A DNA stretch of 64,000 nucleotides, from contig CAUYUJ010000232.1 in NCBI GenBank assembly GCA_963575745.1, positions 1-64,000 of the forward strand, given 5' to 3'. The DNA is from Prorocentrum cordatum (lineage: Eukaryota). Below, in pieces: positions 1,098 through 54,200 of this stretch. Each line of letters starts with the position of its first letter. Positions within the stretch are counted from its first letter, which is position 1. Position numbers and translations under genes: made by a program. Below the pieces are notes generated by a model. The model was not told the DNA's origin, did no database searches, and was given only the letters and a program-made list of their open reading frames with translations.

Positions 1098-3913
1098 AGG
1101 TCGGCAATCGCGAAGTGCGAGTACAGTATCCTGACTCACGACATACGCTGTACATCGAAGCACTGATGGTCCGCGAGATAGGATCGGACAATACGGCCCT
1201 TCGGACAGTATTGGCCTTTATTGCCGGTCTGCCAGCGGGGAAACCCGCCATGACTTTCGGATATCTACCAGCGAAACAGGGTCGGCTGCAGATGACTGCT
1301 GCGAGCCGACTTTCGCCTAAGGTGAACTTGGCTCTTCAGTACCTCATACGCAACTACTTTCGTATTGAAAACGTTGTTGCTGTACGACTTGCCAAGAGCC
1401 TGACGAAGTTGCCTGCTGCACCCTATGCAGACAGCTGTACACTAGTGCACTATGATAATGATGTGACCCCTGGTTTTCATTACTATGAAGCTGATGGCAC
1501 TGCTTTGAACATCTATGACATCACAGGATCTACACACTCACGCATCATCCAGTGTCTTAAATCCAGGAAGCCGTCTGCTGGATTTGACCAAGACCTCACT
1601 AAGTTTGAGGAACTCGTTGATGGTCCACCACCAAGCGAATCACCTCCAGCAGCTGCTCCTGAGGAGCCTCCTACGGATAACGATGGTCGGCTCCCGACCA
1701 TCATAGAGGAAACAGAAGAAGATCTGGATGCTTTTGTCTTGAAGTCGTGGTATGCTGAACTGATGGATGACAGAACACTCCTTGAAGCTGACACAGAGGA
1801 AGTCATGCATACAGTTCCCACATACATGACAGACACACCGTGTGTGTTAGTCTCTACGACCTGTGAAGATGTGCAAGGCCACTTGCCGGAGCGGGGGCAC
1901 CCGCCAGGATACGACATGGACACTTCTTACTACGTTCCTTTATGCTCCACGGATCCGGATAGCAAATATGATCTGGACTCCGATGAGCACGGGAAGTACA
2001 TCGAGCTCTGCTTCACTGCAGACATGTCCAAAGTCGTCCTGTCCGAGCAGCAACACCGATTGTTGGATGACAGCAGCGTCACAACCATGCGAGTATACGT
2101 CAGTGCTGCCTCCAAACGCGCCGTGGTCGTCAAGGAAGACGATCTACTCACGAAGGCCGACATTCAAGCGAATCCGGTCAAAGTTTCCAAAGCCCTTTAC
2201 ACAGAATTGAAGACTTGGCTTGACAATAAATGCTTTCAGATGACTGACTTGAGCAAAGCGTCTAACATCATGACTTCACGCTACGTATACAAATGGAAGT
2301 TTGTCAAGAACGAAATGGGCGAAATGGAAAGGACGATCAGGTTACGCTTGGTACTCCGTGGCTTCATGGACCTTGAAGCCTTTGATGTCGAAACCTTCTC
2401 TGGCACGGCAAGGAGGTCAAGCCAGAGACTGCTCGCAAGTTCTGCTGCATGCAACAAAGCTTGGATCATCTCTTCCCTGGACATCAACATGGCTTTCTTG
2501 AAGGGACTGACCTATGGCGAGCTCGCCGCGGCAACTGGCGAGAAAGAGCGTGTGGTGTGCTTCACACTACCTCCTGGGTCAGCAGCTGTCCTTCGCATAC
2601 TGCCAGGCTTTGAGTCATATGACGAATCAAAGCATTGTCTTCGGTGTCTGAAGCCGGGGACGGGCACGAAGGATGCTCCCAGGGCATTCTCGTTGAAGCT
2701 CAGGTCCATCACTAGGAGCTTTGGGCTACAGCCTACTTCATACGACGAAGAGTTCGAGATGAGCCCAAACCTCTTGACTGCCAAACACGTCGATGACATC
2801 AATATGACCGGGAAGGAAGATGCTATTGACAAGTATGTCAAGTGTGTTGAAGATACGTTTGGAAAGTGCAAACTGAACAAGCACACATACACAAACTGTG
2901 CCGTTCGGTACAACAAGACCGATGGTGGGAGCGTCACTCTTGATCAGGACGAATACATCAAACAGCTCCGTCCTATCACACATCCAGAACTCACGGGAGC
3001 TGATCCTGAGAGCAAAGCGACAAAGACGATTTCTGACATGTTCGTCAGTCTTCGTGGCGCTCTAGCCTATGCGTTGATCACGCAGGTATGGCTGATGGTC
3101 TATGTTGTCTCACTACAACGTATCCAGGAACCGACAAACATCCAGGTACGACGACTAAACGCGGTTACCAGGAAACTACAGGCAGGTCCGAAGAAGATCG
3201 TGTATCAAGCTATGACTCCAACAGGCGAAGTTGACCTGCATAGCGATTCTGGCTATCGCCGTCTCAATGGAGATGAAGACGACGAAGTCAAAGGCTATGG
3301 TATCCGCGGGGCTAACCTGCTGAGGCGTGGCCACACGCAAGCGGGGAAACCCGTCGTGCACCTGGTGGACGCATACTGCAAGTCTCATCGACTGCAGGTG
3401 CGTTCGAGCTACTCTGCGGAAACACTGGCAGCAGCCCTCAACTTGGAAGACTGCTACCCGACCATTGTAACGCTCCACGAGCTACACTCGGGACCATTGA
3501 CCCCCACACAGTTAAAGAACATATTGGAAATGGGTGGTCTATGTATCAAAGTCACTCTGACTATTGATGCCGAGTCTGTCTTCAAGTCTTTGTCTAGCAA
3601 AGATCTGAAGAAGTCCACAGAATGTACTCTGCTTGGGCACATTAGCTGGATCCGCCAGATGATGGAGCGCGGAATCGTTGAAAGCGTTCAATGGTGTGAC
3701 ACGCGGGATATGACTGCCGATGGTCATACCAAAGGTAGCATTGACCGCGCGTTGCTCCTACAAGTAATGGTCGGCCAGCAATCCTTCAAGCACGAGCTGA
3801 AGAAACATACGCCGTATAGGGCGGGCAGGTCGTCTCAGGACGGCCCTGCCTCCCGAGCCAGCGGGGAAACCCGCGGGCAGGTGCGCTCTAGTAGCGAGGA
3901 AACTCGCCGGTAG
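1034..3913 (+). pseudogene. Copia pol, RT (RVT_2-like) and RNase HI part
   Basis: RT motifs SRYVYKWK..IRLRLVLRGF, SLDINMAFL, LKPGTGTKDAPRAF, AKHVDDI. RNase H motifs HSDSG, RSSYSAETLA, IDAESVF, WCDTRDMTADGHTK. The frame is open upstream of 1094 (GGWSGPYPVIR). Confidence 0.9.
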
Positions 3914-27390: not shown

Positions 27391-29709
27391 GGAGGAGGAA
27401 GCAAAGAGGAGCAGAGGAGAGGGAGGAGGACGAGAGATCCTGCGCGGAGGGTGTGCAGAGAAAACAAGAATCCCACTTGGGATGTGGGGAAAAACCAGGC
27501 GGGCGTTAGCCTGCGTGCGGCGCATCGTTCAGGCCGCGCACAAGGGGTCTCCTCGCGAGCCCCTCCGCAGTCCCGTGCGCAGACGCGCCGCTGCTGCGGC
27601 ATATCCCAGGGACATGCTCCTCTCCCCTTCCGCTCGTTCTCACCGTTGTCGCTCATCTCCTCATACATACTTCTTGCTCATCATTCGATCGGCCGTCTCG
27701 TTCTGGTAGAGTGCTGACGCGGCATCCGTCGATAACAAAGTGCTATATTGCGACTTGATGACATTAGCGGGGGGCGCGTGTACACAAAACAAACAACATG
27801 ATATTAGCATAGCCTCGGGGGCCTCTTGGGGGCTGTTGTGGGGATCTTGGGGCTGCCTTGGGGGATCTTGGGGCTATCTGGAGGATCTTGGGGTCCTTTC
27901 TGGGGTTGTCTCGGGGTCGTCTTGAGCCATTCTTGAGCCGTCTCCGTCTTGAGCTGGCCTTGAGGCCGCCTCGGTGGGCCTTTGGGTTGTCTCAGGGTCA
28001 CCTTGGGGTCCTCCAGGGGCTACCCAGACCGCTGGAGCGCAGCTTGGAACGGCCCCAAGGCCGTCCAGAGGGGTCGGAATGAGAGGTGATGGGAGGGGAG
28101 GTGTGATAATTGAAGGTATTATATCTTATGGAACAGGAATCCTGGGGAGGCTTGTCCAAGGGGGGTTGTCCGGGGGGGTTGTCCGGATTCTTGTGGGGTT
28201 GTCCAAGGGGTTGTCCGGGCCGCGTCGTGTCAGCACGTGCGCATATCATTATCATGCATACCATCAAAAGCATGGCACAACCAGGGAAGCCCAGTTGGAA
28301 CTGTTGACTTTTTTCCCCACTTTTCCTTGCTTCGGCTCCCGTTTGCACGCCCTTCTTTATCGCGCTTCCCCAAACAGCTATGCTGAGTGGGGTCCTGTTG
28401 CGGTAGAAGCTAGTTCTGGCCAATGGGTCAGCGCTCAGAGACATCCTCCATCATCGGGGGTGACCTGGCCAGTTTCGCCAGAGACGTCCTCGCAACTCTG
28501 GGTTCGGAGATGCCCTGAACTGAGGTGGTCTGGTCAGTTCGGCTTGACACATTTTCGCAATATGCCGGCGTTCCCGCATCTCTGGGCTCGGAAATGCAGC
28601 GCGCGAGGTGGTCCAGCCAGTTCATCCAGAGACATCAGGGCGCGGAGATGTAGCGCGCGAAGTGGTCCAGCCAGTTTCGCCAGAGACATTCTCGCAATTT
28701 TGGGTTCGGAGATGCCACGCGAGAGCTGGTCTGGCCACTTCTGCTTGAGATATCCTCGCAACACTGCGCGCTGGCCACGTCCCTGATTGGGAACGGTACT
28801 CTCGCCTCAACCCTTGCGACATCCTTCATTGGGTACTTATGGTGTTGCGGCTCGAGTGCCAGCAACCATCCGTGATTGGGAATGGTGCTCTCGCCTACAT
28901 CTCCGTCTGGTATTGGTGCTGTCGCCTTCGCGCTGACCACATGCTGCCTCATCATTATGCGTGATGCTCTAGCCTCAGCGCCGGTCACTTCCCTAAGTGG
29001 GTATTGTGCTGCCGCTCGGGCGCCAGCCACAATCACGTGCTGGGACGCAGGGGTTGTAGGGGTTGTCCGGCGGGTTGTCCCAGGATTTTGTTGGTTATGT
29101 TTTTTTCCATTTGACATAGTAGGGGAGGGTACGGAGATGCGGGCCGGTGAGCGGGAAGGGGAGGGAAGAGGAGGGGCACGGGAGGGCTGGGTGCGTTGGA
29201 TGGGGCGGGGCAGGGGGAGGAGAGGGAAGCACGGCAAGAATTCTTCGCTGACCTGGGCCCCTGGGGATCTAGCCCCCTTCCCCGAAAGCATGCTGCCGTC
29301 CTGAGCTGCTCTCTGACGGCCTCTGGGCTGGTAAGCGGCCTCCCTTGGGGGAGCGCGTCAGAACAACCGCCGTGAAGTTTTTCGGTTACTTGAAGGAGGA
29401 GGAGGAGGAGGAGGAGGAGGAGGAGGAGGCGTAAGGAGGATCTGCAGTGATGACCTACTCGTCGAGCCGAGCGCCTTGGGTTCGAGGATCGACGAATCGC
29501 GGGGATCGCCGCGGCGGGAATGCCGAGGCCCAGGCGCGCCCAACCAGGGCGTGCCGAACCCTGGCCAGGCGTTTGCCAGCGGGCTAGGCGAGCTCCCCCC
29601 CTTGTTGGGGTGCCAGGAGGAGGAGGAGGAGGAGGAGGAGGAGGAGGAGGAGGAGGAGGAGGAGGAGGAGGAGGAGGAGGAGGAGGAGGAGGAGGAGGAG
29701 GAGGAGGAA

Positions 29710-30948
29710 GGCACATTCGAGCAGCAGATCTGCAGGGACTTCGCAACCAAACACTTTTGTGGCGGAGGCCTCGAGCACGGTGTCGACCTCACCGTGCTCT
29801 CAAGGCTCATCCGTGGCCATCGACGTGCGCAACGCCACGGACATGCAGCACTGCTCGAGCGCATAGCTACAGGAGCCGTGTGGCCAGGATATCGGCGTTA
29901 CCCTGACGAGCCTGATCGACAAAAATGCCCTCGGTGTACAGCTGCACGCCTCCATCCCCTGCCCGTCGAAGACATACTACATCAACAGTGGAAGTTCCCG
30001 TGCCTTAACGCGACAGAGCACACAGCCTTTGACCTCCTCCCGCATATAGAAGGTCAACATGAAGACGGGGCTTGTTTTTGGCATCGAGGAATCGTCCCGA
30101 TCCTCTCTGGATTTACCCGCACATTGACAAGTTCCCAGAATGGAAGTTTTGAGTGTTCAGGAGGCGTTGCTCAGGAACAGCGTCTCCAGCTCCCCCCGGA
30201 TGCCCTGGTAGGTACTGATGGAAGCGGAGGCGACCACACTAATGACCCAAGGCTCCGTAGATGTGGCTGGGGTTTTGCCATTCGTTCCCAGGGTGCCATC
30301 CTTAGGGAAGCCTGGGGCCCGCTCCTCGGACGGCACCAGGCGGTGCCCTTGGCGGAGCTGGAGGGCCTTACGCAGGCCCTCAAGCATACCCAGGGACCAG
30401 CCACTTTTGTTGTAGACTGCGCCTGCGTCCTGAAAGAATTGCATGCTGGCCCTGGCCAGACCCCGCCCTTGCATGCTGCAGCATGGGCTCGTTTTGGAAT
30501 GAATGTAACGTCAGGCCAGGAGAAGCGCAGTTTATCAAGGTGAAGAGCCACCTCGCAGAGACTGGCATCGGCCGATTTGTCTCCGAGGGCGGGTTCCGAT
30601 GCAATGAGGCTGCTGGCGAGGCGGCTAAGAGAGGAGCTGCCTTCGCCCAGCTTCCCCCAGTCCCTCGCCGAGGTTGCCCGAATCGACTCCCTGGCCAAGA
30701 AGGTTTTGAAACTCTTGCTCGAGGTAGGTTTGGCGGGGGTCCTGGCCAGGCAGGCTGACGCCACAGCCCCAGGAGCCCCGACCCCAACCGATTTCGTTGC
30801 CGCCCGCAGAGAGCGGCGTGATGGCCGAATCGCTGCTAGATTGGACGCCCGCCAAGCTACCAACCACCAGGTGGTTCCACGCCGGAGCACCTCTTTTTGT
30901 TCTGTCCTTGCATTTGTACCAAACTCAAGCCCTCTTGTAGTCGCTCTG
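29710..30948 (+). mobile_element. 5'-truncated, frameshifted LINE fragment (post-RT zinc knuckle plus RNase H) between GGA tracts
   Basis: ATGAVWP, KCPRC..EDILHQQW, CFWHRGIVP, VGTDGSGG..DPRLRRCGWG, QAVPLAEL, VVDCACV; after a frameshift IKVKSH and NEAAGEAAKRG. Confidence 0.85.
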
Positions 30949-30949
30949 A

Positions 30950-32160
30950 GAAGGAGGAAGAGGAGAATGATGAGGATGAGGAGGATGAGGATGATGATGA
31001 GGATGAGGATGATGATGCTGCTGCTGATGACGATGACGACGAGGATGATGATGACGATGATGATGATGCTGGTGATGATGATGCTGATGCTGATGATGAT
31101 GCTGCTGCTGATGATGATGCCGATGATGTTGATGACGATAATGATGCTGATGATGATGATGATGGTGATGATGATGAGGAGGAGGAGGAAGAGGAGGAAG
31201 AGGAGGAGGAGGAGGAGGAGGAGGAGGAGGATGAGGAGGAGGAGGAGGAAGAGGGAGGAGGAGGAGGAGGAGGAGGAGGAGGAGGAAGAGGAGGAGGAGG
31301 AGGAGAAGAGGAGAGAGGAGGAGGAGGAGGAGGACGAAGAGGAGGAGGAGGAGGAGGAGGAGGACGAGAGGAGGATGAGGTGGAGGAGGCGGAGGGGGAG
31401 GCGGAGGGGGAGGCGGAGGAGGAGGCGGAGGAGGAGGAGGACGAGGAGGAGGAGGAGGAGGAGGAGGAGGAGGAGGAGGGGGAGGAGGAGAAGGAGGAGG
31501 ATGAGGACGAGGAGGACGAGGAGGAGGAGGAGGAGAAATAATAAGAGGAAGAGGAAGAAGAGGAAGGGGAAACAATTTAATGATAATGGTAATACTAACG
31601 CGAAAAACAATCTTTGTAATACTAGTAATAGTATGAAGAATAGTAATAATAAGAAGAAGACGAAAAAGACGAATACGACGAATCATTATATTTGTTATAT
31701 GAAAACTACCAGTAATAATACGAAGCAGAATAATCATATTAATAATAATGATAAGACGTAAATGAATAATAACATTGCTTATAGGAAAATACTAAGACGA
31801 CCGATAAGAATAATGATAATAATGAGAAGAACCAAGCGACTAATCATATTTTTTAATAATACTAGTAGCAATAATAATAAATATAACAATTCTTGATACT
31901 ACTGCTAATGATACTAGGAATAACAATAACCATAATAATAAGGCGACTGAGAAGAATAATAAGAGTAATACATACAATCCTATTACTAATGATACTAAGA
32001 GTACTATGAACATTACGACGAATAATAAACCGAATAAGAAGCACACGAATAATACGAATGATAATGCCACGACGAGTAATACGATACTAAGAAAACAAAT
32101 GATAACAACACAACGAAGAATAGTAATACGAATAATAAGAAGACGAAAATAATAATATCA
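30950..32160. repeat. (GAT)/(GGA) microsatellites and AT-rich low-complexity sequence
   Basis: Read directly from the sequence. Confidence 0.93.
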
Positions 32161-33699: not shown

Positions 33700-34341
33700 T
33701 GCGACAGTTAAGAACAATAAGGATAAGACACATAATACTACCAATCAGAAGAATAGTACTAAGAAGAATAACGATACGAGTACTACTAATATTATGAATA
33801 AGAACAATGAGAGTACGCATGGTACTAATACTACTCATAAGAATAATGATAAGAAGAAGCAGGCGACAACGAATACGACGAACCATAATAATACCCATAG
33901 TCTTACTAATATTACTAATTAGAAGAATACTAAGAACAATACTAATATCAAGACCAATCCTAATCATACGAGTAGTAATACCAGCACTAATGCTACGAAT
34001 AATAGTAGTACTAATGATACTAGTCCTACTACTAATATCAGCAATCATAATACTGATAATAATAATGATGATAATACTAGTAGTAATAGTGATAGTAATA
34101 GTAATAGTAATACTTATAATACTAATACTAATACTAATACTAATACTAATACTAATACTAATACTAATACTAATACTAATACTAATACTAATACCAATAC
34201 TAATACTAATCCTAATACTAATACTAATACTAATACTAATACCAACACTAATACTAATAATAGTAATAACAATAGTAATACTGATAAAACTAATAATACT
34301 AAAAATGATACTAATCATATTCATGATCATAATCATACCAA

Positions 34342-34388
<47 letters not shown>

Positions 34389-36303: not shown

Positions 36304-37690
<1,387 letters not shown>

Positions 37691-42739: not shown

Positions 42740-44868
42740 GTGTTGCTGACGATGAGGATGATGATGACGACGGCGACAGCGACGACGATTTTGACCATCT
42801 TGCGCGCATGTGATCTAACATTTGCTTTGGCATTCATTCGTTTCTCCCTGTCCCTTGTACCCGCCCAATAATTCTAAGAACCAGCCCCCTTCCAGTGGAA
42901 ATTCTTTTCATACCGGCTGCTGGAAAAGTCCTCAATCTGTGAAACTCTTATAACTTTTTAGACCGAATGTGCGCGGCGCTACAGGGAGGGCCACTATTTG
43001 AAAACGACCCGCCCTCAATCAGTGAAACATTCTGCACATTCGTACAAAGAATATGCGCGGCGCTAAGGCGAGAACCAAATTTTGAGAACAACCCGCCCTC
43101 CATCCTTGAAGCGGTTGGAAGCTGTCAAGATGCATGTGTACGGAGCTAAAGCGAGAGCCGCATTTTGAAAAGGAATCGCTTCATCAGTGAAACTCTAACA
43201 CTTTGTTAGAACGGTTGTGCGCGGCGCTACGGCGAGAGAAACATTTTTGAAAACGACCCGCCCTCAATCTGTGAAGCTCCTGGGGAATGTTTAGCATGAA
43301 TGTGTGCGGCGCTAAGGCGAGAGCCACATTTTGAAAACGCACCGCCCTTAATCCGTGAAGCTCTTGCAAATTTTACAAGCGAGTGTGCGCAGCGCTACGG
43401 TGAGAGCCACACTTTGAAAACGACCCGCCCTCAATCCGTGAAACTCCTGCAATTTTTTGAAACGAATGTGCGCGGCGCCAAGGCGAGAGCCACATCTTGA
43501 AAGGGAGTTGCCCCCAATCTGCGAAACGCTTACAACTTTTGGGACGAGTATGCGCGGCGCTAATGCGAAAGCCACACTTTGAAAACGACCCGTCTTCATC
43601 CCGTGAAACATCTATTACATTAAAAAAAAAACGGATGTACGCGGCGAGGGCCACATTTGGAATTTTGGAAACGGCCTGCCCTCCATATGTGAAGCTGCTG
43701 CCAAGTGTAAAGCGCGGAAGTCTCAGGCCAAACGCCCGGCCCGCCCTTTCGACCGGCCTCGGGGTGCGACAGGGAGGAATCATCTGTAAGGAAAACGAAT
43801 GGAGGAGGAGGAGGAGGAGGAGGAGGAGGAGGAGGAGGAGGAGGAGGAGGAGGAGTAGGAGGAGGAGGAGGAGGAGAAGGAAGAGGAGGGAGGGAGGGGG
43901 GAGGAGGAGGAGGAGGAGGAGGAGGAGGAGGAGGAGGAGGAGAGGAGGAGGAGGAGGGGAGGAGGAGGGAGGAGGAGGAGGAGGAGGAGGAGGAGGAGGA
44001 GGAAGAGGAGGAGGAGGAGGAGGAGGAGGAAGAGGAGGAGGAGGAGGAGGAGGAGGAGGAGGAGGAGGAGTTGGAGGAGGGGGAGGAAAAGGAGGACCAG
44101 AGTAAACCCACGAGCCATCAACGATGTTGGAATACACCCTCCCTCCAGGCTCCTACAACGGTTCATTTCCATTGAGGGAACAGCCTCGTTGGGAGGCAAC
44201 CGTTTGGAGACCCTGAAGCATGCCAAAACATTGCTCTCGGGATTCCAACGCCGCGGATCAACCTGATTGTTGCGTCATGACGCTCTCGGATCGTGCCAGA
44301 ACGCTTTTCTTGGGATTTCAACACCGCGAATCAACGTAACTGTTGCGCCTGCAAAATCAGAATCCTTCCAAAACGCCGTTTCTGGTACGTTGATCACGAG
44401 CATCCGTGAAATTCTTCCAAGTTTTTACGAGCGAATGTGCGCGGCGCGAAGGCGAGAGCGCCACATTCTGAAAAGGAACCGCCCTCAATCCGTAAATCAT
44501 TTGCAATTTTTTAAAACGAATGTGCGCGGCGTTAAGGCGAGAGCCACATTTTGAAATCGGGTGTTCTTCAATGCGTGATGCTCTTGCAATTTGTTAGAAC
44601 GAATGAGCGCGGCGCCGAGGCGAGAGCCACATTTTGGAAACGGGTGGTCCTCAATCCGTGAAGGTCTTGCAGTTTGTTAGGACGAATGTGCGCGGCGCTA
44701 GGGCGGCAGCCACATTTTGAAAATCACCCGCTCTCCATCCGTTAAACTGTTGCCACTTTTAAGTCTCCTGTGAAACGCCCGGCCCGCCCTAAGCACTGGC
44801 CTGCGACAGGGAGAAGTTATTGATCAGGACAAAGGACTGGAGGAGGAGGAGGAGGAGGAGGAGGTGGA
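41820..44868. repeat. Second cluster of the composite head + (83 bp)n + (GGA)n repeat, with a (GAT)n tract at 42405-42790
   Basis: Same head (gaccag.gtaaac at 41850 and 44095), 83-bp subrepeat and gcgacaggga tail as 21520-23310. Confidence 0.88.
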
Positions 44869-45479
44869 GGAACTATTTGGAACTATTTGATCGCGGACCC
44901 CAGTCCGTCAGTCCGCTGGTTCGTCGGACTTGCTGAAACTTCTCAAGAGTCGTCAGGGTGACTTGCAGCACGCTGTGAAAACCACCTCTGACCCCTCTGT
45001 CTGCTGCTGCGGCGGACTGGCTGCTGGTGGGATACACTTGAGCCCGACGCCTCTGAAACTCCGCCCCCCTGGACCACCCGCTCCTCAAAACGGGGGCCAC
45101 TCGCCGCCCTCAATGAGCGCTGGGCTATGGCCTGCACCCGCCGATCCTCGACCTCCTGGCGCAGAGCCTGTCTCCCTCGCCAGCCCTTGCCGGCGCCGGT
45201 GACCACATGGGGGCTCGGCGGGGGGGCCGCCTGGCTGGCCACTGCTCTCTCCTCCGTTCCCGTCCGACGACTCCAGACGACGGCCTCCCCGGGCAGCCAT
45301 GGCCAGACCGATGGCCCTCCCCCTCCCCCTCCCCCTCCTCCTCCGCCTCCCCCTGCCCCTCCCCCTCCCCCTCCTCCTCCTCCTCCTCCTCCTCCTCCTC
45401 CTCCTCCTCCTCCTCTCCTCCTCCTCCTCCTCCTCCTCCTCCTCCTCCTCCTCCTCCTCCTCCTCCTCCTGGGTGGCCC

Positions 45480-48400
45480 CTCCCGCCGAGGAAGCGAATT
45501 CTGCTGGATGCGCCGCGGGTTCTCGACTCCGTTCGGAGTGAGCCCGGGGCAGCTCCTCCTGAGGAAGCGTGCATCGACGGTAGCATGCATGCCGCAGGCC
45601 GTGCAACTGTGCAGAGACCACTGCGCGACCAGCGTGGTCGAGCGCGACGGGTGGATTTCCAGTGGGGCCCCCGAAGCCGAAACAAGTTCCCTCGGTCCCT
45701 GGGATCTGGCACCTGGGGGGCCCTCGCAAGGGGTGGCCGCGAACAGAAAAGAACTTGGAACTCGGGACCACCATCTCACACTTAGAGCACCACCATTTGC
45801 GTTCAGTTCTGCCGAGTTGGTGAGAGGAGTCCCTGACCGTACGCTCTAGCTTAGACAACTTCTTCACAGGGGGTTGGGCGGCTGGATCGTTCTCCCGTCT
45901 CAGACGAGGCGGCCAACGTCAGCGCCCTACGTGCTCTCTTGCGCACCATTAGCGCAATGGAATCGATCCGATCCGTGTCAGGCGCCGTACCCACCAACCC
46001 CTCCTCCACGCCAGCTCCTCCCCAACTCCCGCCCGCGTATCAGCGACGAGGTTCCCTGCCGCAAGGAACAGCTGCTCGGGTGAGTTGAGGTCTTCTGGCC
46101 TCTCATCCAAGTGGGAAGGGGTCCAGATGACCTCTTATCTCCTTGCACAGGCGGTTGCTCCAGGCGTCTCTGGCGCGTGCCCAAAGGTCCTCATTGGATC
46201 CCGTGGCCCTGGCGTACTCCAAACGTGCTCTCCAGGTTCTCGCGACCGTGCGATAGTCGGTGACAAACGCAACACTTGAGCGAAGTTGCTCGAGCGCGAG
46301 CACAAACTATATAATCTCAGCTCTAGGTGCAGTTTGCCTGGGGCCAAGGGGAGGGGCGGCTGGGGCAGCGCCCGCTCAGGGTCTCCTTTGCTTCTCTGCG
46401 TCTGTGGCACATCCTGCTGGGTATCAGGTATCCGCCGTCCGCTGCCCTGGTCTTGTTCCACTGCCCGCCTGCCACCGCAGCCATATTTAGTCCGATCTTA
46501 TCCAGCGGACCTTTCTCCTCGAAGCGTTTGTGCTCAGCTCGGATCTGCAAAACGTCAGCTCCACGGTGTAGTCCGACTCCTTCAGGATGCTGAGCTGCTT
46601 TCGCCGGCAACTGTTTGGAAGTATCCTCCGCGAAATCGTCGATGAGCGGCTGGAAGCAGCCGTTAGCTTCGAAGGTCCCGTCCAGCGACGAGGGGGCGTC
46701 CCATTGTTCCGCCGTGTTTTCGTTATCTCCGACGGCTCGGGACCACCTCGTCGCCGTCGGCGCATGCCGGCCCGCGTCCAACTGTGTCGCCTGCGCTGCT
46801 CCATCTTTGAGGTCCCAGTCCAACCGATCTCCTTCTTATGTGGGGCCATGCTTTCAGGGCTCTGTGGTGAATCTCTGGAAAGCGTTGCCAAAGGTTGATC
46901 CATCCCTTGATGATTGCCGTCCATGGCTGGATCTCCTTTCCACATCTCCACCGCCAGCGTCGTGGTAAGCCATCGCCCTCTAGCCATGCCTCCAGCTACT
47001 TGCCCTGCTTGTCGGCGTAGTCGCTGAAGTTCGTGAACCGCCATGCCGAAAGCCTGGTGTCCGTAGACTGTCCGCGGTATGGCTTCCGTTGTCCATCATC
47101 CTTCACTTTCTCGTGCCAGTGCTGCAACTCGGCGCAATCCGATCATTTTGGCGAACCTCTTCTTGGCCTTCTGCCGACGAAGGCCCGCTCTCGCCGTTAT
47201 CCGCTCGCGTCCTGCCGAGGTGTCCATGCCCGAGTCCACCGCCACCGTAGCAGCCTGGATGGGGGTCCCTTTACTGCGCAACTCCTCCGCGGTCCTCCCG
47301 ACATCCCTGGGGTGGGGGCCCGAGAGCACCGACTGGCTGGATGCCGTCATCCTCTGCTGCCCGAGGCCGTCCGTGGTGAGAGAGGTGACCTCCTTGATAG
47401 CATCGCTCGCTCGGGATCTGGAGCCCTCCACCCTCGCGGCAGTGTCGCCCACGACAGTCCACGAAGACGAGGTGGGAGCTCGACGGTGTGCTCGGTCCAA
47501 CACGGGGCGGAGACACGACTGTGTCAACCCCGCCCCACGTGCAGAGCCCGCCACCAGCGATCTGGTAGGCCAGATGGCCTCGCTCCTGCAGGAACCTCGG
47601 CCCGATGAAGGCCGCCACTTCTAGGGCCACCACGACCGATGGGAAGCCCACCTTGACTGCAATGCGCATCAGGATGATGAGCGAGACCGTGTCATAGCGT
47701 TTATCGATGTCCAATGATAATGTCATGGCTGATGCTCCCAGCTCCGCCCCCACCTCGTCCAGGCATGCCCTCGACAGGGCCGCTCTGAGGGCGGAGCTGC
47801 CCTTGAGCGTCGTGTCCCAGTGTGCCTCCAGTCCAGCGCTCCAACGATCGCAGTATCCTCCTCTCGCTCTCGACCACAGCTTGATCGGAAGCGTCAACAT
47901 ACCAAGAACACGGTCTCCTCCTTTGGGTTTGGCTGCCAGTGCACACTTTGTGGCTGCCAGTTGCCTCGGCCAAGTAATCTCCTGCTCACAATATTGTGAT
48001 AATTGAAGAAGCCATACTCGAGCCTCCTTCGGCGCCCTCTTGATATCTTGCGGTCCCAACTGGTCGACTCCTTTCGCCTTCGAGGCGGACGATGATCTGA
48101 TAGCGCCGTCGAGGTCTTCGAGCGTGAGCTGCTCCATGTCTTCCTCCCCTGCCTTGGCCCTCATCAGGTTGAGCTGCTCTGCGATGTCCTGCTTGGTGTC
48201 CACTGGGTCCGTCCATCTATGCTTCCAATCCGACTTCTTGATTGATATCATAACATGTGGGTCTGCCATGCCCTTGCAAGTGTCAGTAACCATCTCAAGC
48301 CTGGGGCACTGCTGCTCTTTTTTAACGTGCCGGTGCAAGAGTCCGACTTTGCCTTTCCACGCAGTTTTGGCCCATTTGGTGAAGCTCCTCCTCTGGTTGG

Positions 48401-49940
48401 TGAAGCTTCTCGCCATAGCCGTCGCTAAGTGTCCTTCTTACTGGTTGACTAAATTCTGGATTTGGCCGACGCCCAGATCCCTTAGGTCTCCCAGCATCTC
48501 GTAGTCGTTGTTGCGTGCTTCTTGCCCGTGCTTTCTGCCGGAAAGCTGGTCTTGCTCCAGCTGCTGGAGCGCTTTCATCTGCCCGAGCGAGTCCGTCAGG
48601 CGCTTGGCTTGCTGGCCAGGATCCGTGTCATTGGAGCGGAGGGCAAGGTACCTGATCAGTATCGCGTTCATGATGCCCCAGTGCTCCGCCATATTGAGCT
48701 TCATGCGGGCACGCCCTGGCGTGGATCGGGCCTTGACCCACCTGGTCTCGAAGCCAGCAGCCCTGCCTCTGTAATGTTCTGCTTCATCTGCTTTGATGCC
48801 GTCCGTGATGATGGCCGCCGCCTCCAACCTCGTGACCCACTCTCCGTAGATCCTGGTGGCTGTCTCCGTAGATCCTGGTGGCTGTCTTTTCTGCTAGCTC
48901 ATGTCGGTGGTCTTGAATGATGAGGTCTGTGTCCCAGGCCTTCATCAGATGTCTCAGAAGGACTCCAGTCCGCTGCCATCCCCTCCTGCCACGTGTGGCT
49001 CGTGATACTGAACTGCTTAGCCGTGGTGCTCACCACCGTCTCCTCTGGCATATCCTGCTCCTGGAACGCCTCCTACAAGTGTGTCTCCAGGCGCTCTTTG
49101 GCACGTTGCCGTTCTTCTCGTCTTTTCTTTGTGCGCTTGCTCTCTGGGTCGGGTGCCTTCTTTGGCTTCGGCGGGGTGGCGAGCCCTTAGGGATGATCAA
49201 CTTCCTGTGCCACCATGTGCTGGATGCGCCTTCGATGGATAAGGTGAGCCCGCAGTGTGTTCCCCACGGCGCCGTCCTGACCGCTTCGAGCTTGACATGT
49301 CAACACAATCCGTCCTTGCAACTCCGAAATCTATCAGACTACCCCTCCCCTTCACACACGTGGCTTCCACATCTGGCCTGACAAGGGAGCCTCCGATCTG
49401 CTGCAAGAAGCCTGTGGTCTGAAACTCTGTGAACGGGATGTTTCAATCTGCTAATATCACTCATGGGTCCGCAAGCGCTCGCACGAACCCCGCTAGTGAT
49501 CGGACGCGTTCGCAGTTCACTCCATTCATGCCTGCACCTGGGAGTCATTATGCTGCAATCAATATCACGTTGCCAGCACGAGTGTGTAAGTTGACTGCTG
49601 TGAAACCGAGTAAGGGGTCCTTACCTCCCCGTCTGGGATGATGCGCTCTCGCAGCGTGTCGTGCGTAGTGCGCGCCACGTGGGATTTGACCAACATGAGC
49701 TCTCCGCCTGAATTCCCTCGATCAGACCGACCGTTTGGTGTCGCTGGGATACCTGTGAATTTTCAGCCGTCTTTCGCCACGTCACGTCCACTTTGGTCTG
49801 GCCGAGGGTGTCGCTGTCTACGTGCGTCTCGCACATCATGATCACGTCCATGTCTCTGCCCTGCTCGTTGATACACTTGTGGGTTTTGCTGCCCCACTGC
49901 GTGATGCTCGGGCAGAAGATCTTGCTAAAGAGGAGGATGG
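45480..49940 (-). pseudogene. LINE ORF2 (APE endonuclease, RT, partial RNase H), with multiple frameshifts and stops
   Basis: APE: IFCPSITQWGSK..DVIMMCETHV, GGELMLVK, GSLIDFGV, PWGTHCGL. RT: KAKGVDQ, KPKGGDRVLG, LDIDKRYDTV, AGSARG, WTVVGDT (decayed xxDD). RNase H: PRQTAPRAE, FVTDY, NEDLW, GNLVAD. C-terminal WWCSKC and SCTACG. Confidence 0.88.
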
Positions 49941-49959
49941 TCATCGCCAGCCGCAGGAG

Positions 49960-50928
49960 TGGAGGGGCCTTTCCCTCGAGTCTGACCTTGACCTTCGCTT
50001 CCTCCTTGAGCCTGTCGAGCCTGTCCTTCTTCTGCTGCACTTCCTCGGCTGATGGTGGGGCGACGTCAGCAGGCGCTGGTGCCTCCTGAGCCACTGGCGT
50101 CGCTGGCCCTGGGGCGACCGAAGCGTCCTCCGCCGCCTTCCGCTTCTCGGCCTTGTGGGGCGCGTGGATCGCATCCGCAGCCCTCTTCGCCTCGGTGAAC
50201 GCCCTGCACTGGTTCTGGGCGTTGTCGAGCAGGGTCGCGAGTGATTCCATCTTCTTCTGAAGCTGCCGTAGGCGCCCGCGGTCCCCCTTCGTGTGGTCCT
50301 CGAGGGGTTGGCGAACAGCTCCGAGTCCACTGGCGGCGCCTTCCGCGTGGTGTCTTCTTCTGGAGGTGCCGCATGGAGAGTCGAGTCATGGCAGGCTCGA
50401 CGTGCTGCCTCGTTCTCCTCCTCTGCGTCACCTGCCCCCTCCAGGCCCTATCGTGCTTACCCTGCGCCCTCTTGAGCCCGTTCGCTGCCCCGATGAGCTG
50501 GGCCGCCGCCTTGCCGAGCGCTGCCTTTGACGTGTCCAGCTTGTGGATCGCCGTGCGGAGCGCGGCCGACTTGGACGCCTCCGCGGGCTTCGGGTCCTTG
50601 GCCGCGAGCTGGGCCTGGAGAGCCTGCAGCGGGCCCAGGTCCACGTTCGTCTTGGCGAAGGCGCCCTTGCCCGATTGGACCTTATCAGGGATCTGCTGGA
50701 TCCCATCGGCGGGCGCGAGTGCAGGTGGGCTTCTGCCCCACGGGGGTGTCGCACCTCGCTGGCTCCCTCCCGAAGCCTGTGCCCCCGAGTCGTTCCAGCC
50801 CGTGATGCGGTCCTCACACTTGTTGCGCCAGCCTCCTGACTTTTCCAGCTTCCAGTTGTAGACCCATCCTCTGCAAGTCCCGCACACCGTGTACTACTGC
50901 CTCTGTGGTTTTCCCATGGTGGCGCCAT
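49960..50928 (-). pseudogene. LINE ORF1-like protein, frameshifted
   Basis: ATG at 50928 (MAPPWENH), ~170 nt after the SL. N-terminal CGTC..NKC zinc-finger-like motif, then Ala/Lys/Glu-rich coiled-coil-like sequence directly upstream of the APE domain. Confidence 0.65.
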
Positions 50929-51100
50929 CTCTGGAAGTGCGCTTGCTCCAGCAGGAGCTCACAAAACCGAACGCCAGGATGCGGCTGCCCACCCGCGGGC
51001 GCGGGAGGCAGCAGCAACTGGGGCGCACCAGCTGCTGAGAAATTTTGTGGTCGAGCCGCGGACTAGCGGTATCCACGTGGTTCGTTGTGAACGTCAAAAC

Positions 51101-51137
51101 CTTGAGCCAAAATGGCTTGAGCCAAAATGGCTACGGA
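51101..51137 (-). other. Complete 22-nt dinoflagellate spliced leader plus tandem 15-nt relict SL
   Basis: The reverse complement of 51116-51137 is TCCGTAGCCATTTTGGCTCAAG (exact DCCGTAGCCATTTTGGCTCAAG). The reverse complement of 51101-51115 is CCATTTTGGCTCAAG. Confidence 0.97.
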
Positions 51138-51249
51138 GGAGGAGGATGAGGAGGAGGACGAGGAGGAGGAGGAGGATGAGGAGGAGGAGGAGCAGGAGGA
51201 GGAGGAACAAGAACAGGAAGAGACCTGTGTCAGGCGCCCATATAGTCAA

Positions 51250-54200
51250 ATTTCGAATGGCCTTCGGCGCATCCGCCACCGTGCGTGGGCTGTGGGTGAG
51301 GGGCCACTCGGATGGCTGATGGGGTCTCGTGGCAGGCAGTTGTTGGGCCTCTTGGGGGCCTCCTGGGGGCCTCCGTTGCCTTGGGGACATTTTGGGGCCT
51401 TTGGGGGATTTCTTGGGGACTTCACAGGGCCGAGGACTGGGAATGTCCGTTCGGGTTTCCCCTCTGGGCCCCCTCTCGGGGCAGTCGTGGGACCGCCTTT
51501 AGTTGCCTTGGGGGCCCATGGGCCGTTTTGGTGCCTTCTTTGGCCGCCTTGGGGCCCTCTTGGGAGCCTCTTTGTCCATCTTGGGGCCGACTTCGGGGGC
51601 GTCTTGGGCCGTCTTCGACGCTGCTAGGAGCACAGCGGGTGATATGCAAGCTACCGAGACGGGAACGCAGACGTTTTCCTAATGTATCGGCTCTGAGAAG
51701 CCAGGCTACCTTGTGCAACCTTGACGGCGGTCTGGGCCTTTTTGGATGTCATTTTGGGCCATCCTGGGGCGTCTCAAGGCGTCTGGTGTTTTTCGTTGGG
51801 AGTCTTTTTGGTAGCATCTTGGCGCCATCCTGTGCCGTCTTGCAGCATCTCCGCATGTGGCAAGCTGGGCCCAAGTTCTCGACTGCGCACGCCACCTCGA
51901 ACCAGGTCGGCTTGAGCCTAAGCCTATCGAAGACGCCTACGGCGAATCACCGCCGCCCCCTGCCTTTTTGGGAGCGCCTATGTGGCCGAACGTTGAGGCC
52001 AGACCTGCCAAGCTATCGGACCATGTGTTCCCCGAATCGGTTTGGAACGCCTTCTGGGAACACGTGGGCATCTTGAAACTCATCTTGGCCGCCTGGAGGT
52101 CATTTTGACCCTTTCGGGCCTTCTTGGAGGACGTCTTGGAGGGCTCCTGGGCTGTCTTGGCGTCTTGGAGGCCTCTTGGGCCGTCGTGGGGGCCTCTTGG
52201 GGCCGTCTTGGGCCTCTTGGGCGATCTGTTGGGGCACTTGGGCCGTCTCGGGCCGTCGGAAGACCGAAAACAAGTAAATGCCACAATTGAACAACTCATG
52301 GGAAATCTATGATTTTGGCATTTTCGGGTTTTCCTGGAGGCCCTCTTGGAGGCCTCTTGGGCCGTCGTGGGCCATCTTAGTGCCATCTTCGGTCGTCTTG
52401 GTAGGCCCCTGGTCCGTCCGACGCCGTCGGAAGCCGTTTGGGGGGCCTCTCTGAGCCGACTCGGGGCCCTCTTGGAATGCTCCAGGGCCGTCTTGGAGGC
52501 CATCTGGGGCGTCTTAAGGCCTCTCGGGGCCGTCTTGGGGGCCTCTTGGGGCCGTCTTGGGGGTCTCTTGAGCCGTTCTGGGGCCATCTTGGAGGCCTCT
52601 TGGGCGATCTTTGAGCGATCTTTGGGGGCTCTTGGGCCGTATCGGGCCGTCGGAAGGCCGAAACGAAGCAAGTGTCAGAATCCTTCGAAAACGCAGGGAA
52701 AATAACGGAATTTTGCCTTTTCTGGCCTTTCTGGAGGCCTTCTTGGAGGCCTCTGGGGCCGTCTTGGGCCAGCTTCGAGCCAACTTCGGCCATCTTGGTG
52801 GGCTCCTGGCCCGTCTGACGCCGTCGGAAGCTGTTTGGGGGGCCTTTCTGGGCCGACTTGGGGCCCTCTTGGGGTGCTCCAGGGCCGTCTTGGAGGCCAG
52901 CTTGGGCGTCTTGGAGGCCTCTTGGGTCGTCTTTGTGCCCTCTTGGGATCGTCTTGGGGGCCTCTTGGGCAGTCCTGAGGCCATCTTGGAGGCCTCTTGG
53001 GCGCTGTGGGGGCGATCTTGGGGGCCTCTTGGGCCGTCTTGGATCGTCGGAAAGCCGAGAAGAAGCGAATGCCAAAATCCTTCAAAAACCTTTGGAAACT
53101 CAATGATTTTGGCCTCTTCGGGCCCTCCTGGAGGACCTCTTGGAGGCCTCTTGGGCCGTCTTGGAGGCCTCTGGGGGGGCCTCTTGGGCCGTCTTGGACC
53201 GTCTAGGACTCTCTTGGGCCGTCTTGGAAGCTGTCTTGGACCATCTTGGGCGGACTTGGAGGCCATCTTGGACCATCTTGGAGTCCATCTTGGGCCAATG
53301 TGGCCATCTTGGAGGCCATCTGGAGCTGTCTTGGAGGAACAATTGGGAGAATTGAGCTCCCGGGCAATCCTCCCGGGACCCCAGCGGGACGGGCCGAAGC
53401 TCCAGGGGGAGTTCTTTTGGAAAAAGAACCAAAACCAAAACCATATCGTCCGGCACGCCAGGCACCACTTTGATAAATCAAAAGGGGGCGGCGGATTTAG
53501 TGGCTTTCGGCCCATCCCGACACCGTGCCTAGGTTGTGGGTATGAAGCCTGTTGGATGTTTGTTGGGATCTCGTGGGAGACCTCTCGGGGGCCTCTGGAG
53601 GCAGTTTGGACGCCTCTTGGGGGCTTTTTGGGGGCCTCTTGGGGCCTCTCTTGGGCCGCTCGGGGGCCTCTTGGGGGTCTTTTGGGGGCCTCTTGGAGCC
53701 TCCTGGGCGCCTCTTGGGGGGCCTCCTGGGGACATCTCGGGGCGGAAGGCTTGGATTTTCGGTTCGTGCTCCCTCTTTTGGGCCCCGTTTGGGGCCGCCG
53801 TCTTGGGGCCCTCTTGGGCCGATTTGGGCGCCTCTTGGGCCGTCTTGGGGCCCTCTTGGGCCGTTTGGGGGCCCGCTGGCGGCCTCCTGGGCCGTCTTGG
53901 GGCGGTCTTGGGGGCCTTTGGGGCCGTCTGGGAGCGTCGGGAAGCCGAAAAGGTGAGAGCGCCAAAATCCTTCAAGCACCGGAGGGAGACCAATGAATTG
54001 GGGCCTCTTGGGGCCCTCTTGGGAGACTTCTTGGAGGCCTCTTTGGGCATCTTGGAGGCCTCTTGGACCGTCTAGTGGCCATCTTGAGCGTCTTGGAGCG
54101 ATCGTTCGGCCACTCGGGGCCCTCTTGGTCAGTCTTGGGGGCTTCTTGAGGCCCTCTTGGCCCGTCTTGGGGCCCTCTGTGGGCCCGATGCATTCATGCG

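What the first reader, a model, noticed from the sequence alone, without database searches (positions are those of the whole stretch)
44869..51137. Full-length LINE capped by a dinoflagellate spliced leader: a candidate trans-splicing-dependent, promoterless retrotransposon
Seen: the minus-strand element begins exactly with the 22-nt DinoSL, then a 15-nt relict SL, ~170 nt of UTR, ORF1 and APE-RT-RNase H. Established: DinoSL is trans-spliced onto nuclear mRNAs, and genomic SL relics mark retroposed mRNAs. Inference: this copy is the complete cDNA of a trans-spliced LINE RNA. The integrated SL contains an internal AG (CCGTAG|CCATTTT) that can act as the next trans-splice acceptor. Each insertion could therefore be cut out of read-through host transcripts and re-capped without an internal promoter, so the 5' end regenerates itself. 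This differs from SLACS/CRE and NeSL elements, which insert into SL RNA genes and use restriction-like endonucleases; this one has an APE endonuclease and sits in a microsatellite.
Basis: partly seen in the sequence, partly recalled or inferred. Interest (0 to 1): 0.88.

Follow-up and report, generated by a model that had tools for sequence, protein, structure and literature searches.

The report
Spliced-leader-capped, decayed dinoflagellate LINE copy
A broken 6.3-kb copy of a dinoflagellate jumping gene (a LINE) starts with the short leader that these algae splice onto their messenger RNAs plus a remnant of an older leader, so it was copied back from processed RNA at least twice; whether the whole family depends on this trick cannot be told from one copy.

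Summary
On the minus strand, 51137-51116 is an exact 22-nt DinoSL and 51115-51101 is the canonical 15-nt relic. It is the only DinoSL in the 64 kb. Downstream lies one non-LTR retrotransposon with a coiled-coil N-terminus, APE, RT, RNase H and a C-terminal domain. It ends in (CAAATAGTTC)x2 without poly(A). Both flanks are (CCT)n.

Corrections:
- Pfam sees no domain in this copy. Identity rests on relatives, the nearest named ones from Prorocentrum cordatum, and on family profiles.
- The copy is dead. It has at least 9 frame changes and at least 6 in-frame stops. RT motif C reads VGD where relatives have VDD.

The best reading is a full-length cDNA of an SL-trans-spliced LINE RNA whose parent copy already carried an integrated SL. 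That is the known relic-SL recycling model applied to a LINE. "Promoterless and trans-splicing-dependent" stays untested: no genome is held and no other 5' junction could be retrieved.

There are partial precedents. DinoSL-tagged retrogenes are enriched for RT functions (PMC5585692), and SL exons are fused to retrotransposons in Schistosoma (PMC5832876). Interest is moderate.

The parts
51138..51206 (-). 5' flanking (CCT)n microsatellite on the element's strand, with interruptions. It is pyrimidine-only sequence directly upstream of the SL-internal AG.
   Evidence: TRF reports (GGA)24 at 51135-51206; sequence read.
51116..51137 (-). Complete 22-nt DinoSL (TCCGTAGCCATTTTGGCTCAAG). The first 3 nt are shared with the microsatellite register.
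   Evidence: Exact 21-mer match, 0 expected in 100 shuffles; sequence; consensus quoted in PMC7245778.
51101..51115 (-). 15-nt relic SL (CCATTTTGGCTCAAG): an SL truncated at its internal AG.
   Evidence: The same relic sequence is given in PMC12014239.
50918..51100 (-). 5' UTR, 183 nt. No similarity was found anywhere else.
   Evidence: No other copy in the window. The first 22 nt are absent from metagenome contigs.
49909..50917 (-). N-terminal ORF1-like coiled-coil region. It starts at ATG 50917, has an in-frame TAG at 50896-50894, has at least one frame change (frame 1 to frame 0; a weakly supported intermediate frame would make it two), and runs without a stop into the APE domain.
   Evidence: P0002 (Prorocentrum cordatum, partial) aligns at 50596-50444 (74.5% over 51 aa by tblastn; 73% over 52 aa by BLASTP) and at 50304-49783 (53%, E 4e-45). 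Frames.
49135..49908 (-). Apurinic/apyrimidinic-type endonuclease (APE) domain. It is collinear but split over up to 5 pieces in different frames.
   Evidence: A family APE profile matches five minus-strand pieces in order, covering hmm positions 5-253 of 263. E-values are 5.8e-6, 0.023, 0.24, 8.5e-7 and 4.2e-6. The best plus-strand control has E 4.0. P0019 and P0001 give supporting HSPs.
46922..48839 (-). Linker plus reverse transcriptase. There is a frame change near 47580 and in-frame stops at 48438 and 47096. Motif C reads VGD instead of VDD. A perfect 22-nt tandem duplication lies just upstream of the part, at 48841-48887.
   Evidence: for example P0003 E 5.6e-73; P0004 82% over 111 aa. 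Motif C in alignment A4. Duplication.
46015..46348 (-). RNase H domain remnant in two reading frames, the first interrupted by an in-frame stop.
   Evidence: A family RNase H profile matches three pieces in order, at hmm positions 50-61, 67-118 and 121-158 of 177. E-values are 0.013, 4.2e-7 and 9.1e-5. The best plus-strand control has E 2.5.
45522..45870 (-). C-terminal domain of the ORF2-like protein. It reaches residue 1530 of a 1553-aa relative, so the copy is 3'-complete.
   Evidence: P0114 residues 1412-1530 align in two frames.
45316..45470 (-). Internal (AGG)n microsatellite on the element's strand, in the C-terminal/3' region.
   Evidence: TRF reports (CCT)52 on the + strand.
44871..45315 (-). 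3' region ending in (CAAATAGTTC)x2, with no poly(A). No significant RNA structure in the last 152 nt.
   Evidence: Fold z-score -1.28.
44839..44870 (-). 3' flanking (CCT)n microsatellite. Same repeat type as the 5' flank, so a target-site duplication cannot be delimited.
   Evidence: TRF reports (GGA)11 at 44839-44871; sequence.

Best explanation
This is a decayed, full-length insertion of an APE-RT-RNase H non-LTR retrotransposon from a large dinoflagellate LINE group with the same layout as the published SymbioLINEs.

Proposed sequence of events:
1. The template was a LINE messenger RNA that had received the dinoflagellate spliced leader by trans-splicing.
2. Reverse transcription started at the element's own non-polyadenylated 3' end at a nick in a (CCT)n/(AGG)n microsatellite. 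It ran to the capped 5' end, so the leader was written into DNA.
3. The 15-nt relic behind the full leader records an earlier round. A parent copy already carried an integrated leader, was transcribed from a start upstream of it, and was trans-spliced again at the AG inside that leader (CCGTAG|CCATTTT).

The lineage therefore went through at least two leader-capped retrotransposition cycles, and a leader-bearing copy served as a source element.

Shown: the SL+relic in DNA, the LINE identity and completeness, the microsatellite flanks, the absence of poly(A), and the decay of this copy.

Inferred: upstream or read-through transcription of the parent, re-splicing at the integrated AG, target-primed reverse transcription, and any preference for (CCT)n.

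The present copy cannot make its own proteins.
For: SL and relic:
- Exact DinoSL plus canonical relic lie on the same strand, 183 nt upstream of the in-frame ATG. This is the only DinoSL in 64 kb.
- The relic is the form the recycling model predicts (PMC7245778 passages; PMC12014239).
- PMC5585692 section 11 states that multiple DinoSLs arise only when a retrogene is transcribed from upstream of its recycled DinoSL.

LINE identity:
- The RT piece has 1503 relatives at E<=1e-3.
- Of 17 long relatives, 10 carry Pfam RNase_H, 8 carry RVT_1 and 3 carry Exo_endo_phos.
- Family profiles place APE and RNase H collinearly on the minus strand only.
- HSPs run from the N-terminus of ORF2 relatives to residue 1530 of 1553.
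- The only PDB profile hits are five LINE-1 ORF2p entries, all weak (E 0.045-0.13).

One continuous element:
- The ORF1-like region is continuous with APE. Another copy, P. cordatum P0002, covers both.
- There are no LTRs and no other copy in the window.

Ends:
- Both flanks are the same microsatellite type. Such arrays cover only about 3% of the window.
- The lack of poly(A) matches the published SymbioLINE description: TSDs, conserved UTRs, no poly-A (PMC5890265 legend passage).
Against: - Only one copy could be examined, so nothing shows that other full-length members begin with the SL.
- The 5' UTR and the first ~100 codons have no detected relative. A chimeric 5' end cannot be excluded.
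- The copy is heavily broken: at least 9 frame changes, at least 6 stops, VGD for VDD. If those defects were already in the template, it was mobilised in trans.
- A perfect 37-nt SL+relic next to such decay is compatible with neutral decay by my rough estimate of about 0.8 expected substitutions. That estimate is my own inference and not a tool result.
- No host gene or transcription unit was identified upstream on the minus strand.
- Pfam itself does not recognise any domain in this copy.
Confidence: 0.65

Rival explanations
1. One-off by-product. The family normally uses its own 5' UTR or internal promoter and its genomic copies normally lack the SL. This copy and its parent descend from occasional read-through transcripts that were trans-spliced like any other dinoflagellate RNA. 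The SL is then a passive tag with no role in the life cycle.
For: - Trans-splicing is near-universal in dinoflagellates, and SL relics tag very many retrocopies (PMC11453091, PMC12014239 passages).
- SymbioLINEs are described with conserved 5' UTRs and the paper never uses the term 'spliced leader' (0 occurrences).
- This copy is dead.
- The other LINE fragment in the window (29713-30576, +) is 5'-truncated and has no SL.
Against: The relic implies that an SL-bearing copy was itself a productive source, so two successive events occurred in one lineage. No internal promoter is known or testable here.
Confidence: 0.3
2. Chimeric 5' end. The LINE reverse transcriptase switched template at the 5' end of the LINE RNA onto an unrelated SL+relic-bearing mRNA. 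The SL, the relic and part of the 183-nt UTR would then come from a host transcript.
For: No relative of the 5' UTR or of the first ~100 codons was found. Template switching by LINE RTs is established knowledge (recalled, no call).
Against: - The ATG at 50917 opens the same frame that runs into the P0002-homologous region, so any junction must lie within the 183-nt UTR.
- Weak only: one contig of run X1, at depth 5.8 against about 2-3 for other pieces, matches the UTR in two blocks. This hints that the UTR is repeated, but the tool warns that such joints are unreliable.
Confidence: 0.1
3. The integrated SL works as a basal promoter and not as a splice acceptor. Its TTT(T/G) motif would start transcription of new copies, so the element is not promoterless but carries a portable promoter.
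For: PMC5585692 section 11 proposes this for DinoSL-tagged retrogenes and reports higher conservation of DinoSLs at -50 to -100 and of the TTT(T/G) motif.
Against: The same section states that SL-promoted transcripts would lack the old SL and leave no relic. The relic here therefore shows that the parent was transcribed from upstream of its SL.
Confidence: 0.1
4. The SL+relic arose at the RNA level. An already SL-capped LINE mRNA was trans-spliced a second time at the AG of its own leader, so only one genomic round is recorded.
For: The acceptor AG is present in every SL-capped RNA. Nothing in this window distinguishes an RNA-level from a DNA-level origin of the relic.
Against: The literature read here attributes relics to re-integration and re-expression (PMC7245778 and PMC5585692). 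An acceptor 7 nt from a capped 5' end is an unlikely substrate; this is my inference.
Confidence: 0.08
5. The SL belongs to an SL RNA gene, or the element is a SLACS/CRE/NeSL-like insertion into an SL gene.
For: The relic is followed by GT (CTCAAG|GTTTTG), which superficially resembles an exon-intron boundary.
Against: - The full SL is followed by the relic and not by a GT donor.
- The sequence after the relic does not match the SL RNA intron start quoted for Amphidinium carterae (GTACACATTGGG; PMC12584245).
- There is no Rfam hit.
- There is one SL in 64 kb and no tandem array.
- The 3' flank is microsatellite and not the rest of an SL gene.
- The endonuclease is APE-type.
Confidence: 0.02
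6. Assembly artefact that joins cDNA-like or unrelated sequence.
For: The region is repeat-rich and both junctions lie in a microsatellite. The Schistosoma authors raised chimeric assembly as a caveat for their SL-retrotransposon fusions (PMC5832876).
Against: Both flanks carry the same repeat type. Contigs of run X1 agree with internal parts, including a frame-change region, without gaps (46255-46517, 3 differences, 0 gaps). X1 may not be independent of the assembly.
Confidence: 0.03

Closest known systems
Recycled (retroposed) dinoflagellate cDNAs with relic spliced leaders. This is the Slamovits & Keeling model, seen here only as described in PMC7245778, PMC12014239 and PMC5585692.
   Same: A genomic DinoSL at the 5' end followed by the 15-nt relic truncated at the internal AG. 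It implies re-expression and re-splicing of an integrated cDNA.
   Different: The retroposed RNA encodes the retrotransposition machinery itself. There is no poly(A) tail and the ends look like a LINE insertion. The element is a transposon copy and not a host retrogene.
SymbioLINE / Symbiodiniaceae LINEs (de Mendoza et al. 2018, PMC5890265)
   Same: Exo_endo_phos - RVT_1 - RNase_H layout, no poly-A tail, defined UTRs, dinoflagellate host.
   Different: No DNMT was detected in the N-terminal region (no Pfam hit). The N-terminal coiled-coil region runs into APE without a stop. Nearest named relatives are from Prorocentrum cordatum. That paper does not contain the term 'spliced leader'. No RT tree was built here.
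SL-gene-specific LINEs: SLACS/CZAR/CRE of trypanosomatids and NeSL-1 of nematodes (features recalled, not read here)
   Same: LINEs physically joined to spliced-leader sequence in organisms that trans-splice.
   Different: Those insert into SL RNA genes using a restriction-like endonuclease. Here the SL is a cDNA-derived 5' cap sequence, the endonuclease is APE-type, and the target is a (CCT)n array.
Genome-encoded SL exons fused to retrotransposons in Schistosoma mansoni (PMC5832876)
   Same: [quoted passage not shown]
   Different: Different phylum and different SL. That paper reports no relic and makes no full-length LINE 5'-end claim, and its authors could not exclude misassembly.
L1Tc/ingi LINEs of trypanosomatids with the Pr77 internal promoter (PMC1874656 and PMC8190864, search-listing abstracts only)
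   Same: LINEs living in a genome where mRNAs are trans-spliced. They face the same problem of making a capped, translatable full-length RNA.
   Different: Per those abstracts, Pr77 gives unspliced transcripts from an internal promoter. The copy here shows the opposite solution: an SL-capped RNA.

Membership tests
Non-LTR retrotransposon (LINE), APE-RT-RNase H type | LINE-type reverse transcriptase | tested here: met
   The RT piece has 1503 relatives at E<=1e-3. P0001 and 8 of 17 long relatives hit Pfam RVT_1. The five PDB profile hits are all LINE-1 ORF2p, but weak (E 0.045-0.13). Pfam does not hit this copy directly, and motif C is VGD.
Non-LTR retrotransposon (LINE), APE-RT-RNase H type | N-terminal APE (Exo_endo_phos) endonuclease | tested here: met
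   The family APE profile is collinear over five minus-strand pieces, hmm positions 5-253 of 263. Exo_endo_phos is found in 3 of 17 long relatives and weakly in P0001.
Non-LTR retrotransposon (LINE), APE-RT-RNase H type | C-terminal RNase H | tested here: met
   The family RNase H profile hits three collinear pieces with E 0.013, 4.2e-7 and 9.1e-5. RNase_H is found in 10 of 17 long relatives.
Non-LTR retrotransposon (LINE), APE-RT-RNase H type | No terminal repeats; target-site duplication | tested here: inconclusive
   No direct or inverted self-match of the element in the window. Both flanks are (CCT)n, so a TSD cannot be delimited.
Non-LTR retrotransposon (LINE), APE-RT-RNase H type | Multicopy family | tested here: inconclusive
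   There are diverged relatives on two P. cordatum contigs and in ENA/EukProt data, and one X1 contig about 86% identical. There is no second copy in the window and no genome is held.
Dinoflagellate retroposed cDNA with relic SL | DNA-encoded DinoSL at the 5' end, followed by a relic truncated at the AG | tested here: met
   The relic is identical to the DinoRL quoted in PMC12014239.
Dinoflagellate retroposed cDNA with relic SL | 3' poly(A) remnant of a processed mRNA | tested here: not met
   The 3' end is (CAAATAGTTC)x2, directly followed by (CCT)n.
SL-gene-targeting LINEs (SLACS/CRE/NeSL) | Insertion inside an SL RNA gene, with SL-gene sequence on both sides and a tandem SL array | tested here: not met
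   One SL in 64 kb, microsatellite at the 3' junction, no Rfam hit.
SL-gene-targeting LINEs (SLACS/CRE/NeSL) | Restriction-like endonuclease downstream of RT | tested here: not met
   An APE-type domain lies N-terminal to RT. The defining feature itself is recalled, not read here.
Microsatellite-specific LINEs | Consistent insertion of many copies into one microsatellite type in one orientation | not testable with these tools
   There is a single copy. (GGA)n/(CCT)n arrays cover about 3% of the window. The other LINE fragment abuts (AGG)31 in the opposite relative orientation.

The most novel reading that the evidence does not exclude
The subfamily is obligately trans-splicing-dependent. The integrated leader is a heritable 5' module whose internal AG, placed behind the pyrimidine-only (CCT)n target, forms a portable trans-splice acceptor. 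Any read-through transcript then yields a capped, precisely 5'-complete LINE mRNA without an internal promoter. A preference for (CCT)n would supply the polypyrimidine tract at each new site. The same machinery, copying SL-capped RNAs to their 5' ends, would be the long-sought engine of mass retrogene formation in dinoflagellates.
Probability: 0.2. Interest if true: 0.8.

Novelty: new variant of a known kind. Interest (0 to 1): 0.5.

Why it matters
LINEs must rebuild a complete, capped 5' end at every generation, and the known solutions are internal promoters. A LINE lineage that inherits a spliced leader and is re-capped by trans-splicing would be a different solution.

It would also tie a specific class of reverse transcriptase to the SL-tagged retrocopies that fill dinoflagellate genomes. 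The papers read here call the responsible enzyme unknown (PMC5585692 section 11; PMC6050394 passage).

This locus shows that a LINE-type insertion with no poly(A) and microsatellite flanks can carry a full SL plus a relic. It does not show that the family relies on it.

Tried and rejected
- Whole genome: none is held, so 5' junctions of other copies could not be tabulated.
- Copies in the window: blastn of the element against the window gave 0 non-self hits. The repeat finder was swamped by microsatellites.
- Pfam on 26 minus-strand pieces: no RT, APE or RNase H.
- PDB with the RT piece: only two unrelated weak hits. PDB with P0001: none.
- Sequencing runs: one DNA(?) metagenome run, X1, with a 0.06 share of the words; no RNA holder was listed. 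Laid contigs cover a few internal pieces at low depth and say nothing decisive about the 5' junction.
- Viral contigs: no relative of the RT piece and no SL+relic match.
- Metagenome contigs: the 22-nt start of the UTR gave 0 matches. With peptide patterns from alignment A3, 594 stretches matched but none was confirmed by tblastn.
- ORF1 searches: the 'near' search found only P0002. The 5' UTR plus ORF1 read through the stop with X, 'longer', found nothing.
- SL-derived peptides (AILAQ, SHFGS, PFWLK and similar) in the 152 stored proteins: none at an N-terminus. One internal chance ILAQA in P0116.
- Rfam: nothing relevant.
- 3'-end RNA fold: z-score -1.28, not significant.
- Earlier scan notes: none for this genome, these words or this sequence.
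- Literature: searches found no paper stating that dinoflagellate LINE copies or transcripts begin with DinoSL. One search failed on a syntax error. Supplementary tables, for example the retrogene lists of PMC5585692, were not opened and could hold such cases.

Full report
**What is in the sequence.**
- Read on the minus strand, the region opens with an interrupted (CCT)n array at 51206-51138.
- Next comes TCCGTAGCCATTTTGGCTCAAG at 51137-51116, then CCATTTTGGCTCAAG at 51115-51101, then unique sequence.
- The 21-nt core of the dinoflagellate spliced leader matches exactly once in the 64 kb. No match occurred in 100 shuffles. The only other hit, with 3 mismatches, is the adjacent relic.
- The 15-mer occurs exactly twice: inside the full leader and as the relic.
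- The leader agrees with the consensus DCCGTAGCCATTTTGGCTCAAG quoted in PMC7245778 (passages). The relic is identical to the 'DinoRL' quoted in PMC12014239 (passages).
- One nuance: the first three leader bases (TCC) continue the register of the (CCT)n array, so only 19 nt of the full leader are unambiguously leader-derived. This microhomology is typical of LINE 5' junctions (established knowledge, recalled).
- At the other end the element finishes with CAAATAGTTC-CAAATAGTT at 44889-44871, without poly(A), and runs straight into (CCT)n again at 44870-44839.
- (GGA)n/(CCT)n arrays of 12 nt or more, merged into blocks, cover about 3% of the window (1631 + 316 nt). Landing in one is mildly non-random, but it is a single event.

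**Is it a LINE?** Not by direct annotation.
- Of 26 stop-to-stop minus-strand pieces, none hit Pfam RVT_1, Exo_endo_phos or RNase_H at E<=0.1. The longest open stretch is 388 aa.
- Homology settles it. That 388-aa piece finds a 1591-aa protein, P0001, carrying RVT_1 and a sub-threshold Exo_endo_phos.
- An exhaustive HMMER search finds 1503 relatives at E<=1e-3, 393 at E<=1e-10 and 11 at E<=1e-30.
- Of 17 long relatives scanned, 10 carry RNase_H, 8 carry RVT_1, 3 carry Exo_endo_phos and 6 carry no Pfam hit.
- tblastn of all 152 stored proteins against the window gave 267 HSPs. Of these, 242 lie at 46344-50596 (-), 2 at 45522-45870 (-) and 23 at 29713-30576 (+).
- I built profiles from the relatives' APE and RNase H regions. 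They match minus-strand pieces of the element in the right order. APE covers hmm positions 5-253 of 263 over five pieces. RNase H covers positions 50-158 of 177 over three pieces. Plus-strand pieces serve as a control and reach no better than E 2.5.
- The C-terminal HSPs reach residue 1530 of a 1553-aa relative.
- A profile of the RT region hits only LINE-1 ORF2p chains in the PDB, and weakly (five sequences, E 0.045-0.13).
- The nearest named relatives are 'unnamed protein product, partial [Prorocentrum cordatum]'. P0003 covers the RT (44% over 283 aa by tblastn). P0002 covers the coiled-coil plus the APE N-terminus (74.5% over 51 aa and 53% over 182 aligned columns by tblastn; 73% over 52 aa by BLASTP).
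- Closer fragments come from unnamed ENA contigs and from a EukProt transcriptome labelled Pyramimonas sp. CCMP1952.
- The layout matches the SymbioLINEs of de Mendoza et al.: Exo_endo_phos, RVT_1, RNase_H, TSDs, conserved UTRs, no poly-A (PMC5890265 passages).

**Is the leader attached to the LINE or to something else?**
- The ATG at 50917 opens the same frame that, after an in-frame TAG at 50896-50894, runs into the stretch shared with P0002. P0002 continues into the APE N-terminus.
- The LINE coding region therefore begins 183 nt behind the relic, and no other ORF or gene fits in between.
- What could not be verified is whether the 183-nt UTR and the first ~100 codons are shared by other copies. 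No relative was found for them.
- The only hint is one contig of run X1 that matches the UTR in two blocks, at a depth above that of the single-copy pieces. The tool warns that such joints are unreliable.
- An SL RNA gene is excluded. The full leader is followed by the relic and not by a GT donor. The bases after the relic do not match the intron start quoted for Amphidinium carterae (PMC12584245 passage). Rfam finds nothing. There is no SL array.

**State of the copy.**
- Chaining only the well-supported segments gives at least 9 frame changes. The count rises to 12 if weakly supported pieces are included.
- There are at least 6 in-frame stops: 50896-50894, three within 49517-49135, 48440-48438 and 47098-47096 (using).
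- One frame change is explained by a perfect 22-nt tandem duplication at 48841-48887.
- In RT motif C, five of seven aligned relatives have VDD. This copy has VGD (alignment A4).
- An X1 contig covers 46255-46517, a region with a frame change and a stop, with 3 differences and no gaps. At least that defect is therefore not peculiar to this assembly, although X1 may not be independent of it.
- The copy is a pseudogene. A perfect 37-nt SL+relic beside this decay is not evidence of selection. From about 6 stops in roughly 1800 codons I estimate about 2% divergence and about 0.8 expected changes in 37 nt. This is my own rough inference.

**How it most likely arose.**
- The papers read here describe the accepted model. 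Transcripts carrying DinoSL are reverse transcribed and integrated. If the copy is expressed and trans-spliced again, the old leader is cut at its internal AG and remains as a relic behind the new leader (PMC7245778).
- Applied here: a parent LINE copy with an integrated leader was transcribed from upstream and re-spliced at CCGTAG|CC. The resulting RNA was then copied to its very 5' end and inserted into a (CCT)n array.
- The missing poly(A) and the LINE-style ends indicate that the element's own 3' end was used for priming. That points to retrotransposition and away from generic retroposition of an mRNA.
- I add one inference of my own. The pyrimidine-only (CCT)n tract directly upstream of the integrated AG resembles a 3' splice-site context.

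**What is not supported.**
- 'Promoterless' and 'trans-splicing-dependent' are claims about the family. They need many 5' junctions and transcripts.
- No genome is held and there is no second copy in the window.
- No RNA run was listed (this blank is no evidence either way).
- The only other LINE piece in the window, at 29713-30576 (+), is a 5'-truncated member of a different subfamily. It abuts a perfect (AGG)31 and has no leader.
- Rival readings remain open: a one-off read-through product, a template-switch chimera within the UTR, an RNA-level double splicing, and the SL acting as a promoter (Song et al.).

**Novelty.**
- Six full-text searches found no paper stating that dinoflagellate LINEs begin with DinoSL.
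- The idea has partial precedents, however. Song et al. found 'RNA-dependent DNA replication' enriched among DinoSL-tagged retrogenes in two Symbiodiniaceae genomes (PMC5585692 passages).
- In Schistosoma mansoni, six genome-encoded SL exons are fused to (retro)transposable elements. The authors suggest these are trans-spliced, retro-transcribed elements, with a misassembly caveat (PMC5832876 passages).
- In an organism where essentially all mRNAs are trans-spliced, an SL on a full-length LINE cDNA is expected. It is not startling.
- What is new here is a clean, full-length example whose relic shows that an SL-bearing copy acted as a source.
- I rate it a new variant of a known kind, of moderate interest. 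The bolder reading, an obligate and heritable SL acceptor module replacing a promoter, stands at about 20%.

Noticed in passing
window 971-3910 (+): A 980-aa open frame with a Pfam RVT_2 hit (E 6.8e-11). It is a Ty1/copia-type LTR retrotransposon polyprotein, apparently far less decayed than the LINE. It was the only clear domain hit among the 90 ORF pieces scanned, out of the 157 I had listed.
   Followed up: no
window 29713-30576 (+), with 29615-29708 and 30952-31535: A second, 5'-truncated LINE fragment. It covers the region between RT and RNase H of relatives and is in one frame over about 860 nt. It starts directly behind a perfect (AGG)31 and is followed by long (GAG)/(ATG)-rich arrays. 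It has no DinoSL.
   Followed up: partly
window 44402-44723: An 83-bp tandem repeat (3.8 copies, 78% matches), 150 nt downstream of the element. Related sequence is very abundant in the metagenome run X1: summed word depth is about 9800, against about 2-5 for the element.
   Followed up: no
window 48841-48887 (-): A perfect 22-nt tandem duplication inside the LINE linker region. It accounts for one of the frame changes.
   Followed up: yes
proteins P0007, P0052, P0078, P0092, P0124: Short fragments 50-82% identical to this dinoflagellate LINE RT come from a EukProt transcriptome labelled as the green alga Pyramimonas sp. CCMP1952. Either that data set holds dinoflagellate sequence or the family is wider than dinoflagellates. 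Their presence in a transcriptome also shows that relatives are transcribed somewhere.
   Followed up: no
window 51345-52254: A block of G-rich tandem repeats with periods of 11, 21, 29, 32 and 41 nt (units like GGGCCTCCTGG), immediately upstream of the element on its strand. No gene was recognised there.
   Followed up: no
window 20800-44100, many sites: Very dense trinucleotide arrays, mostly (GGA)n on the + strand, including (GGA)99 at 43801-44096. They form long imperfect inverted-repeat pairs such as 34009-34380 with 37283-37654.
   Followed up: no
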